A DNA stretch of 64,000 nt from a virus. Taxonomy: Duplodnaviria > Caudoviricetes. The notes below the pieces were generated by a model. It did no database searches and was not told the origin of the DNA. It saw only the letters and a list, made by a program, of their open reading frames with translations. This document shows, piece by piece, positions 38,047 to 38,350 of this stretch. A program made the translations under genes and the position numbers. Position 1 is the stretch's first letter; the number at the start of each line of letters is the position of its first letter. The stretch is from IMG/VR virus record IMGVR_UViG_3300020048_000103, positions 1 through 64,000 of that record; one strand, written 5' to 3'.

Positions 38047-38180
38047 CGAATATTAAAATACACTCATAGTGTTACATTCAGTCTTACTTTATCCCTGTAA
38101 ATTTAGACTATTCCTCAGTGTTGAGAGTGAAGTGTAACAGTTGAGTTTCAAGCTCTGGAAAATACTAAGTGTTTATGCCC

Positions 38181-38266
38181 CCTGAAGATCGAGGGTTCAA
38201 CTCCCTTTTCGACCTCTAATATTAGAGAACATAATGGTCGAATAGTTTAGTGGTCAAAACGTCAGG
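38181..38266 (+). ncRNA. Circularly permuted tRNA-like RNA (3' half 38181-38215 precedes 5' half 38236-38266)
   Basis: CCTGA-AGATC-GAGGG-TTCAACT-CCCTT-TTCGACC-T, 20-nt linker, then GGTCGAA-TA-GTTT-AGTGGTCA-AAAC-G-TCAGG; acceptor and anticodon stems pair perfectly across the halves. Confidence 0.8.
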
Positions 38267-38350
38267 CAACGTCAGTTTTAAACTCACTTAAAAGTAGAAG
38301 TACAGAAAAAACCTCTTGCACGCGAAGGATATTGAAATGCAAGAGGGTAT

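What the first reader, a model, noticed from the sequence alone, without database searches (positions are those of the whole stretch)
38050..38300. Circularly permuted tRNA gene in a phage
Seen: the 3' half precedes the 5' half. The 7-bp acceptor (GGTCGAA/TTCGACC) and 5-bp anticodon stem (TCAGG/CCTGA) pair perfectly across halves. U8, A14, G15-C48, G18G19 and TTC-A58 are all canonical. A 20-nt linker containing a palindrome (CTCTAATATTAGAG) joins the acceptor ends. There is no anticodon loop, but the flanks can extend the duplex (TAAGTG/CACTTA, GAGTTT/AAACTC). Established: permuted tRNAs are known from some algae and an archaeon, and permuted tmRNAs from bacteria; I know of no phage example. 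Inference: RNase P/Z-type cuts would yield a two-piece, anticodon-less tRNA immune to anticodon nucleases.
Basis: partly seen in the sequence, partly recalled or inferred. Interest (0 to 1): 0.9.

Follow-up and report, generated by a model that had tools for sequence, protein, structure and literature searches.

The report
Back-to-front tRNA mimic in phage RNA
The back-to-front tRNA is real, but it is not a tRNA gene: it is the tRNA-shaped head of a conserved non-coding RNA of about 360 bases that follows one unstudied protein gene (DUF7873) in many large phages and some bacteria, and it resembles the known Ro60/Y-RNA tRNA mimics without belonging to them.

Summary
At 38181-38266 a canonical tRNA 3' half, a 20-nt linker and the matching 5' half lie in permuted order.

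It is not a decayed tandem of tRNAs. The same module lies downstream of the DUF7873 gene in every related locus with enough DNA: about 27 phage and 16 Bacteroidota loci, including the cultured Rhizobium phage RHph_TM30. In a 15-sequence alignment 18 of 21 base pairs change on both sides, and the tertiary pairs 19:56 and 15:48 covary.

It is not a decoding tRNA either. No anticodon-loop nucleotides are conserved, and the anticodon stem opens into conserved flanks with a 6-nt repeat rhythm. These end in a hairpin with an almost invariant loop, followed by a second, normal-order tRNA look-alike. That look-alike's "anticodon" loop covaries with a hairpin loop in the 5' flank.

The acceptor 3' end copies the local tRNA-gene convention: N73-C74-(T/A)A here, and encoded CCA in the Rhizobium phage. 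This favours RNase P and 3'-end cutting, as shown for Mycobacterium smegmatis YrlA.

The closest known relative is YrlA, but membership fails: no Rfam match, no GNCGAA motif and no Ro60 gene. I found no paper on it. This scan has noted the same family on many other genomes.

The parts
37261..38046 (+). DUF7873 (PF25283) protein gene, 261 aa; the conserved upstream neighbour and candidate protein partner
   Evidence: Pfam match at 111 bits and 69 homologues. The RNA module follows this gene in all related loci with enough downstream DNA.
38032..38059 (+). Promoter-like site (TTCATA, 16-nt spacer, TAAAAT). Clade-wide sequence conservation starts at the TAAAAT box.
   Evidence: Consensus scan and clade alignment. 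The true 5' end was not determined.
38060..38175 (+). Conserved 5' flank (scaffold) with a 6-nt repeat rhythm, nearly invariant in the window's clade
   Evidence: Alignments. In the flanks of 18 family members, mean identity is 0.385 at lag 6 and 0.346 at lag 12, against 0.276 when shuffled. The window alone gives 0.36 and 0.30.
38080..38109 (+). 5' hairpin (stem AGTCT/AGACT). Its apical loop carries ATCCCTG (38091-38097), the docking site for the loop of the second tRNA look-alike.
   Evidence: Loop-loop complementarity is conserved in the clade and covaries in five other lineages.
38181..38215 (+). tRNA 3' half: anticodon-stem 3' strand, 5-nt variable loop ending in C48, T arm, acceptor 3' strand and U73
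   Evidence: Sequence; covariation; covariance model hit.
38216..38235 (+). Linker that starts with the invariant C74 followed by TAA. It contains a window-specific palindrome. Its length is 16-203 nt in relatives.
   Evidence: Genuine tRNA genes of these phages have the same trailer signature.
38236..38266 (+). tRNA 5' half: acceptor 5' strand, U8 A9, D arm with G18G19, G26 and anticodon-stem 5' strand
   Evidence: Sequence; covariation.
38267..38311 (+). Conserved 3' flank (..GTCAG..TAA..AAAAGTAGAAG..). In the window, 38274-38286 can pair with 38142-38154.
   Evidence: Alignments and minimum-energy fold. This helix is not supported by covariation.
38312..38346 (+). Terminal hairpin (9-bp stem) with the family-wide loop motif GAAGGATATTGA (38324-38335)
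   Evidence: RNAalifold consensus and alignment. In five relatives a T-run follows it; elsewhere a tRNA look-alike follows.
38351..38421 (+). Second tRNA look-alike, in normal order, with a 6-nt loop TCAGGG (38382-38387) instead of an anticodon loop, and trailer A73-C74-AA
   Evidence: Rfam tRNA at 28.2 bits, below the cut-off of 29. Conserved in the clade. Its loop is complementary to 38091-38097.

Best explanation
The permuted tRNA is one of two tRNA-shaped heads of a non-coding RNA of about 360 nt (roughly 38060-38424) that is encoded just after the DUF7873 gene.

Shown here: the module folds as a full L-shaped tRNA body, with acceptor, D, T and anticodon stems and the D-loop/T-loop and 15:48 tertiary pairs. 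It has no anticodon loop. Instead its anticodon stem opens into conserved flanks with a 6-nt rhythm, which end in a hairpin with a fixed loop.

Inferred, about 55% likely: RNase P cuts 5' of G38236, and the tRNA 3'-end machinery trims after U73/C74 and completes the CCA. This removes the linker and leaves a nicked, two-piece tRNA mimic with a free CCA end, held together by the acceptor and anticodon stems.

Inferred, about 50% likely: the RNA works as a particle with DUF7873, the repeat tracts being the protein's binding track and the tRNA heads acting as bait or handles for tRNA-binding enzymes. This would be analogous to Ro60-YrlA.

Speculative, about 15% likely: in the phage it acts as a decoy for tRNA-targeting host nucleases.
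For: Conservation and linkage:
- The module lies on the same strand 100-450 nt (up to about 900 nt in the window's clade, where small ORFs intervene) after DUF7873, in every locus with enough downstream DNA. These are 22 IMG/VR loci, 16 Bacteroidota genome loci, the window's clade and the cultured phage RHph_TM30.
- Covariation is strong: 95.9% of cells are paired against 66.2% in shuffles (0 of 500 reach the observed value) and 31-49% with slid partners. 18 of 21 pairs change on both sides.
- Tertiary pairs covary: G19:C56 becomes A19:U56 in three loci, and G15:C48 becomes A15:U48 in one.

End processing:
- U73-C74 is invariant in 18 of 18 members. The linker is free in length (16-203 nt) and in sequence.
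- The module's 3' trailer copies the local tRNA-gene habit. It is N73-C74-(T/A)A in these phages, and C-CCA in RHph_TM30, where the four tRNA genes in the fetched locus (all within about 2 kb of the module) also encode CCA.
- M. smegmatis YrlA, which has a 7-bp acceptor stem, is cut by RNase P and gains CCA in vivo (PMC4201824).

Wider RNA:
- The flanks and terminal hairpin are conserved, and the flanks show 6-nt periodicity.
- The second head docks by a covarying loop-loop pairing.
- In bacterial chromosomes the neighbouring genes are unrelated to each other, so protein plus RNA behave as a self-contained pair.
Against:
- DUF7873 has no assignable fold or known RNA-binding domain.
- In Lak-C1 the protein gene and the module are about 170 kb apart, so adjacency is not obligatory.
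- Loci were first picked with a scanner that demands pairing, which inflates the pairing percentages. The constant syntenic position, and covariance-model hits on loci outside the model's training set, offset this.
- Most YrlA RNAs keep a closed acceptor loop, so cutting is not a given.
Confidence: 0.5

Rival explanations
1. It is the same conserved tRNA-mimic RNA, but the linker is never removed. The acceptor stem stays a closed stem-loop, as in Salmonella YrlA, and the RNA acts as one continuous molecule.
For: Most YrlA RNAs are thought to keep closed acceptor loops (10.1101/312249). Short linkers of 16-21 nt would make an acceptable loop. A bound protein could shield the RNase P site.
Against: The acceptor stem is exactly 7 bp in all members. 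U73-C74 is invariant. The trailer matches that of genuine tRNA genes, including an encoded CCA in RHph_TM30. Linkers of up to 203 nt are tolerated. These traits are expected for a processed end and would be unnecessary in a loop.
Confidence: 0.3
2. It is a cis-acting leader or processing platform. The structured RNA mainly directs processing or expression of the flanking tRNA-like gene and downstream ORFs, with no function in trans and no DUF7873 complex.
For: It lies inside tRNA clusters in many relatives. It is directly followed by a tRNA look-alike or a terminator. In Lak-C1 the protein gene and the RNA are unlinked.
Against: In Bacteroidota chromosomes the pair stands alone among unrelated genes, with no tRNA cluster. 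The near-invariant flanks and fixed hairpin loop suggest a binding surface rather than a spacer.
Confidence: 0.08
3. It is a second, two-piece tmRNA-like RNA. The nicked tRNA head would be charged and the 3' flank would supply a short tag reading frame, with GCN-TTA-GCN-TAA in several relatives.
For: The gene order is that of permuted tmRNA genes. Four relatives (L006, L014, L016, L017) read Ala-Leu-Ala-stop, with changes only at third codon positions, and a TAA is kept at this column in most members.
Against: There is no G3-U70 pair; the window has T3-A70 and position 3 takes five pair types across members. ARAGORN and Rfam find no tmRNA here. The window clade reads Gln-Phe-stop or Ser-Ala-stop, so there is no conserved peptide. 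There is no room for pseudoknot 1. The same genomes carry a normal tmRNA.
Confidence: 0.04
4. It is a genuine permuted tRNA gene. The ends are joined, by a ligase or a permuted self-splicing intron, into a circle, and the linker is then removed to give a decoding tRNA.
For: The body is fully canonical, and the permuted order matches the algal genes (10.1101/312249 discussion).
Against: The nucleotides next to the anticodon stem are variable and A/U-rich, with no U33 or purine 37. No bulge-helix-bulge motif is present, and the flanks are conserved repeat tracts rather than a group I intron core. Rfam finds an intron only at 35981-36276.
Confidence: 0.03
5. It is a relic of two tandem tRNA genes whose outer halves decayed.
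For: Tandem tRNA junctions give weak hits to the same model (13-37 bits), as Chen et al. warned.
Against: The module sits at the same syntenic site in more than 40 loci across phages and bacteria, with compensatory changes between the two halves in all four stems.
Confidence: 0.01

Closest known systems
YrlA Y RNAs bound by Ro60/Rsr (Rfam RF02553; Chen et al. 2014, PMC4201824; Wang et al. 2018, bioRxiv 10.1101/312249), especially the M. smegmatis type
   Same: The domain order is the same: anticodon-stem strand, variable region, T arm, acceptor, D arm, anticodon-stem strand. It has a tRNA L-shape with D/T-loop and 15:48 contacts and no anticodon loop. It is encoded next to a protein gene and is found in both bacteria and phages. 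The M. smegmatis form has a 7-bp acceptor stem, is cut by RNase P and receives CCA.
   Different: There is no match to the YrlA model, no GNCGAAN0-1G motif in the 5' flank and no TROVE/Ro60 gene in the 73-kb record. The neighbour is DUF7873 instead. The scaffold has 6-nt repeat tracts, a terminal hairpin with a fixed loop, and a second tRNA head docked loop-to-loop.
Circularly permuted tRNA genes of Cyanidioschyzon merolae and other algae (Soma et al. 2007, as cited in 10.1101/312249)
   Same: The 3' half precedes the 5' half, joined by a short linker at the acceptor ends. RNase P/Z-type removal of the linker is expected.
   Different: The algal genes yield decoding tRNAs through a circular intermediate made by the splicing endonuclease and ligase. 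Here no anticodon loop can be formed, and the termini continue into a larger conserved RNA.
Two-piece (permuted) tmRNA of alpha-proteobacteria and cyanobacteria
   Same: It has a permuted tRNA-like domain, and an intervening segment is excised to give two base-paired pieces.
   Different: tmRNA lacks a D stem and anticodon stem, carries G3-U70 and a tag reading frame, and needs SmpB. None of these holds here, and a separate tmRNA exists in the same genomes.
T-box leader / tRNA anticodon pairing
   Same: A hairpin loop of the RNA pairs with the anticodon-position loop of a tRNA-shaped partner.
   Different: The partner is part of the same transcript and has a 6-nt non-decoding loop in the window's clade. 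No antiterminator or T-box sequence is present.

Membership tests
YrlA (RF02553) | Domain order T arm, then closed or linked acceptor stem, then D arm, with tRNA tertiary nucleotides | tested here: met
   G18G19, T54-T55-C56 and the 15:48 pair are kept and covary.
YrlA (RF02553) | Scores at or above the Rfam gathering cut-off (69 bits) | tested here: not met
   No YrlA hit on 37900-38600 at E up to 10. A whole-record search gives only 11-bit fragments on ordinary tRNA D arms.
YrlA (RF02553) | GNCGAAN0-1G Ro60-binding motif near the 5' end | tested here: not met
   The pattern search finds it only inside the window's own acceptor stem (38237-42), and that sequence is not conserved in relatives. 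It is absent from 38047-38180.
YrlA (RF02553) | Ro60/TROVE gene within about 4 kb on the same strand | tested here: not met
   There is no PF05731 match in the 73-kb record. The record is only about 41% complete, so a distant copy cannot be excluded.
Permuted tRNA gene (algal type) | 3' half upstream of the 5' half, with the acceptor ends joined by a linker | tested here: met
Permuted tRNA gene (algal type) | Termini that can be joined into a 7-nt anticodon loop (conserved U33, purine 37, bulge-helix-bulge motif) | tested here: not met
   The flanking nucleotides are variable and A/U-rich across 18 members.
Two-piece tmRNA | G3-U70 alanine identity pair and a tag reading frame; detectable by ARAGORN or Rfam | tested here: not met
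   The window has T3-A70, and position 3 takes five pair types across members. No tmRNA is called at the site.
DUF7873-linked tRNA-mimic RNA (a family known only from this scan's notes, unpublished) | Permuted tRNA module encoded on the same strand shortly after a DUF7873 gene | tested here: met
DUF7873-linked tRNA-mimic RNA (a family known only from this scan's notes, unpublished) | Flanks with a 6-nt repeat rhythm and a terminal hairpin | tested here: met
   The rhythm is weaker in the window (0.36 at lag 6) than in relatives (0.41-0.44).
DUF7873-linked tRNA-mimic RNA (a family known only from this scan's notes, unpublished) | Two permuted tRNA modules in one RNA | tested here: not met
   The model finds only one permuted module per locus here. 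The second head at 38351-38421 is in normal order.
DUF7873-linked tRNA-mimic RNA (a family known only from this scan's notes, unpublished) | Physical complex of DUF7873 with the RNA | not testable with these tools
   The evidence is gene linkage only. The complex predictor takes no RNA.

The most novel reading that the evidence does not exclude
DUF7873 and this RNA form a Ro60-independent ribonucleoprotein not described in print. Copies of the protein would line a 6-nt repeat track that displays two tRNA-shaped heads. The permuted head would be opened by RNase P and given a CCA end, so the particle presents a nicked, anticodon-less tRNA that engages tRNA enzymes. In phages it would serve as a decoy or repair platform against tRNA-targeting defences.
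Probability: 0.25. Interest if true: 0.85.

Novelty: new variant of a known kind. Interest (0 to 1): 0.7.

Why it matters
tRNA mimicry by non-coding RNAs is known from only a few systems: tmRNA, viral 3' tRNA-like ends, and YrlA. This one is widespread in large phages, including Lak megaphages and cultured Rhizobium phages, and in Bacteroidota. It has a dedicated unknown protein neighbour and appears in no RNA library or paper I could search.

It also affects annotation. The odd "tRNAs" that follow it, some called amber suppressors, have loops that covary with the RNA's own hairpin. They may therefore be docking heads rather than decoders, which matters when a phage's genetic code is inferred from its suppressor tRNAs. 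A cultured phage-host pair that carries the module makes the question testable at the bench.

Tried and rejected
**Searches that gave nothing**
- blastn of the region against GenBank phages found no match.
- A single-protein locus search and an exact 21-mer search in IMG/VR found nothing.
- Relatives appeared only through the large protein search and a profile of DUF7873.
- PHROGs had no family for the neighbouring genes.

**Permuted group I intron-exon idea**
- I considered this because an intron lies 2 kb upstream. I dropped it without a direct test (Rfam cannot detect a permuted intron).
- The flanks of distant relatives are repeat tracts, no conserved G precedes the 3' half, and no anticodon loop results.

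**Structure of the flanks**
- The single-sequence fold of the intergenic region is not better than shuffles, with z of -1.2 and -0.55.
- The outer helix 38142-54/38274-86 and the TAAGTG/CACTTA pairing are not supported by covariation in the clade.
- An unrestricted search for the longest complement between the 5' flank and the downstream tRNA was not significant. Only the site-specific loop-loop test was.

**Fold of DUF7873**
- Foldseek against the PDB gave nothing at E of 0.001 or better, and the weak top rows were Cas7 chains.
- The Atlas listed DevR/RAMP clusters at TM about 0.2.
- VIA realignment gave no Cas7 chain with Z of 2 or more, and the wide search gave only helical bundles at Z about 6.
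- The tempting link between Cas7's 6-nt footprint and the repeat track is therefore not supported.
- A profile search against PDB sequences gave no hit.

**Other family tests**
- The YrlA model, a TROVE gene and the GNCGAA motif were all negative.

Full report
**What is in the sequence**

- A tRNA 3' half lies at 38181-38215. It has the anticodon-stem 3' strand, a 5-nt variable loop ending in C48, the T arm GAGGG/TTCAACT/CCCTT, the acceptor 3' strand TTCGACC and U73.
- A 20-nt linker follows.
- The matching 5' half lies at 38236-38266. It has GGTCGAA, U8 A9, a D arm with G18G19, G26 and TCAGG.

ARAGORN and Rfam do not report the module as it stands. When the two halves are rejoined in normal order around a filler loop, ARAGORN calls a tRNA for the window and for all 22 relatives tested. 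The window is part of a 73-kb IMG/VR phage record estimated to be 41% complete.

**It is conserved, and selection keeps the two halves paired**

DNA searches found nothing. The upstream ORF (37261-38046) is a DUF7873 protein (PF25283) with 69 homologues. Fetching their loci gave:
- close relatives;
- 23 IMG/VR contigs;
- 18 genome contigs, mostly Bacteroidota.

A simple scanner and then a covariance model built from 15 members find the permuted module on the same strand after the gene, in every locus that holds enough downstream DNA. It lies 100-450 nt downstream in most loci, and up to about 900 nt in the window's clade, where small ORFs intervene. Scores are 25-94 bits; the window scores 78.5. 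Elsewhere the model gives only weak hits at tRNA-tRNA junctions.

On the 15-sequence alignment:
- 95.9% of cells are paired, against 66.2% in shuffles (0 of 500 reach the observed value) and 31-49% when partners are slid;
- 18 of 21 pairs change on both sides;
- all 7 acceptor pairs and all 5 anticodon-stem pairs change on both sides.

Tertiary contacts covary too. G19:C56 becomes A19:U56 in three loci, and G15:C48 becomes A15:U48 in one.

One caveat applies. The scanner demanded pairing, so the percentages are somewhat inflated. The fixed syntenic position, and model hits on loci outside the training set, are independent of that.

**It is not a decoding tRNA**

The bases next to the anticodon stem are variable and A/U-rich, with no U33 or purine 37. 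The stem opens into flanks that are themselves conserved.

In the window's clade the 115-nt 5' flank is almost invariant, although the neighbouring proteins are only about 65-70% identical. Across the family the flanks show a 6-nt rhythm: identity is 0.385 at lag 6 and 0.346 at lag 12, against 0.276 when shuffled. The rhythm is weaker in the window itself.

The RNA ends in a hairpin (38312-38346) whose loop, GAAGGATATTGA, is nearly constant. In five relatives a T-run follows the hairpin. In the others, including the window, a tRNA look-alike follows directly.

**The second head**

In the window this is 38351-38421. It scores 28.2 bits against Rfam tRNA, just under the cut-off. It has a 6-nt loop TCAGGG that is conserved in the clade.

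That loop is complementary to ATCCCTG in the apical loop of a 5' hairpin (38080-38109). In other lineages both partners change together:
- CCAUAGC/GCUAUGG
- CACAAGC/GCUUGUG
- UCCACAGC/GCUGUGGA
- UGAUAGCAU/AUGCUAUCA
- UUUGAUAGC/GCUAUCAAA

Cognate pairs beat non-cognate pairs with a permutation p of 0.0002, though members of one clade are not independent of each other. The finding is therefore one domain of a two-headed RNA of about 360 nt. The "anticodons" that ARAGORN assigns to these downstream tRNAs (CTA, TGT, AAG) may be docking loops rather than decoding triplets.

**How the acceptor ends are probably handled**

Several traits point to processing:
- The acceptor stem is exactly 7 bp everywhere.
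- U73-C74 is invariant in the window's lineage.
- The linker varies from 16 to 203 nt with no conserved sequence. The window's palindrome is not shared.

The genuine tRNA genes of these phages almost all read N73-C74 followed by (T/A)A, without an encoded CCA. The module has the same signature.

In the cultured Rhizobium phage RHph_TM30 the module scores 60.2 bits. It lies about 180 nt after the DUF7873 homologue, in an unannotated gap. There it reads C73-CCA, and the four tRNA genes in the fetched locus, all within about 2 kb of the module, also encode CCA.

A spacer that tracks the local rule for tRNA 3' ends is what a processed end would look like. M. smegmatis YrlA, the one Y RNA with a 7-bp acceptor stem, is cut by RNase P and receives CCA in vivo (PMC4201824). 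I therefore put cutting at about 55%.

**Partner protein**

DUF7873 models confidently (pLDDT 81), but no fold could be assigned. Foldseek gave only weak rows, led by Cas7 chains. Realignment did not confirm them, and the wide search gave only generic helical bundles. No profile hit to solved structures was found.

In bacterial chromosomes the neighbours of the pair are unrelated genes: an amylase, an exosortase and a glyoxalase. In Lak-C1 both parts exist but lie about 170 kb apart. A protein-RNA particle is therefore an inference from linkage, not a demonstrated fact.

**Comparison with known systems**

YrlA is the closest. It has the same permuted-tRNA topology and the same tertiary contacts, it occurs in bacteria and in 22 phages, and its authors explicitly liken it to circularly permuted tRNAs. 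Membership fails on every family-specific test:
- no Rfam YrlA match;
- no GNCGAA motif in the 5' flank;
- no TROVE gene in the record.

The algal type of permuted tRNA gene and two-piece tmRNA share the gene order but fail their defining features. No paper mentions DUF7873, and no related description turned up.

**Relation to earlier notes of this scan**

The scan has met this DUF7873-linked RNA on many other genomes: 192 notes in at least 120 genomes, and notes on this same window. Those notes usually describe two permuted modules.

This lineage differs in having one permuted head and one normal-order head. The new points here are the covarying docking loop, the trailer-convention argument for end processing, and the presence of the module in a cultured Rhizobium phage.

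**Verdict**

The reading as a permuted tRNA gene is only partly right. It is best filed as a new variant of the tRNA-mimic (Y-RNA-like) kind, with an unknown protein partner. The function is unproven.

Noticed in passing
window 38351-38421 and 38080-38109: A normal-order tRNA look-alike with a 6-nt loop TCAGGG sits right after the RNA's terminal hairpin. Its loop pairs with ATCCCTG in a 5' hairpin loop, and the pairing covaries in five other lineages. In some of those, ARAGORN calls the partner an amber suppressor (CTA).
   Followed up: yes
window 35981-36276 and 36235-36723 (- strand): A group I intron (Rfam, 84 bits) overlaps an antisense HNH endonuclease ORF. Another note of this scan says the intron interrupts a phage tmRNA. 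Relatives have an uninterrupted tmRNA (L002 5798-6133).
   Followed up: no
window 12525-12597 (- strand): A tRNA with anticodon TCA, called SeC by ARAGORN, may be an opal suppressor and could point to TGA recoding in this phage. The DUF7873 ORF and its neighbours read through normally under table 11.
   Followed up: no
window 26627-26701: A tRNA called Phe(AAA) scores only 48 bits and has an odd anticodon region. It may be another non-decoding tRNA look-alike, as a sister note on this window claims for several sites.
   Followed up: no
Rhizobium phage RHph_TM30, NC_070966.1 139492-139573 and 139647-139731: Two further permuted-tRNA modules (51.8 and 54.5 bits) lie in tandem in an unannotated stretch after tRNA-Leu(tag). 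They are about 5 kb from the DUF7873-linked copy and have no second DUF7873 gene nearby.
   Followed up: partly
Prevotella phage Lak-C1, MK250029.1 175190-175290 (- strand) versus 3819-4589 (- strand): The megaphage has both the module (63.8 bits) and a DUF7873 homologue, but about 170 kb apart. The pair is therefore not always adjacent.
   Followed up: partly
L002 4111-4257, L006 3488-3689, L044 461-609: In some relatives the acceptor linker is 147-203 nt long instead of about 20 nt. I did not examine what these inserts contain.
   Followed up: no
window 38324-38335 and the same hairpin loop in 14 relatives: The terminal hairpin loop GAAGGATATTGA is almost invariant across distant phages and holds a Shine-Dalgarno-like AAGGA. 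Its partner, whether protein, ribosome or RNA, is unknown.
   Followed up: no
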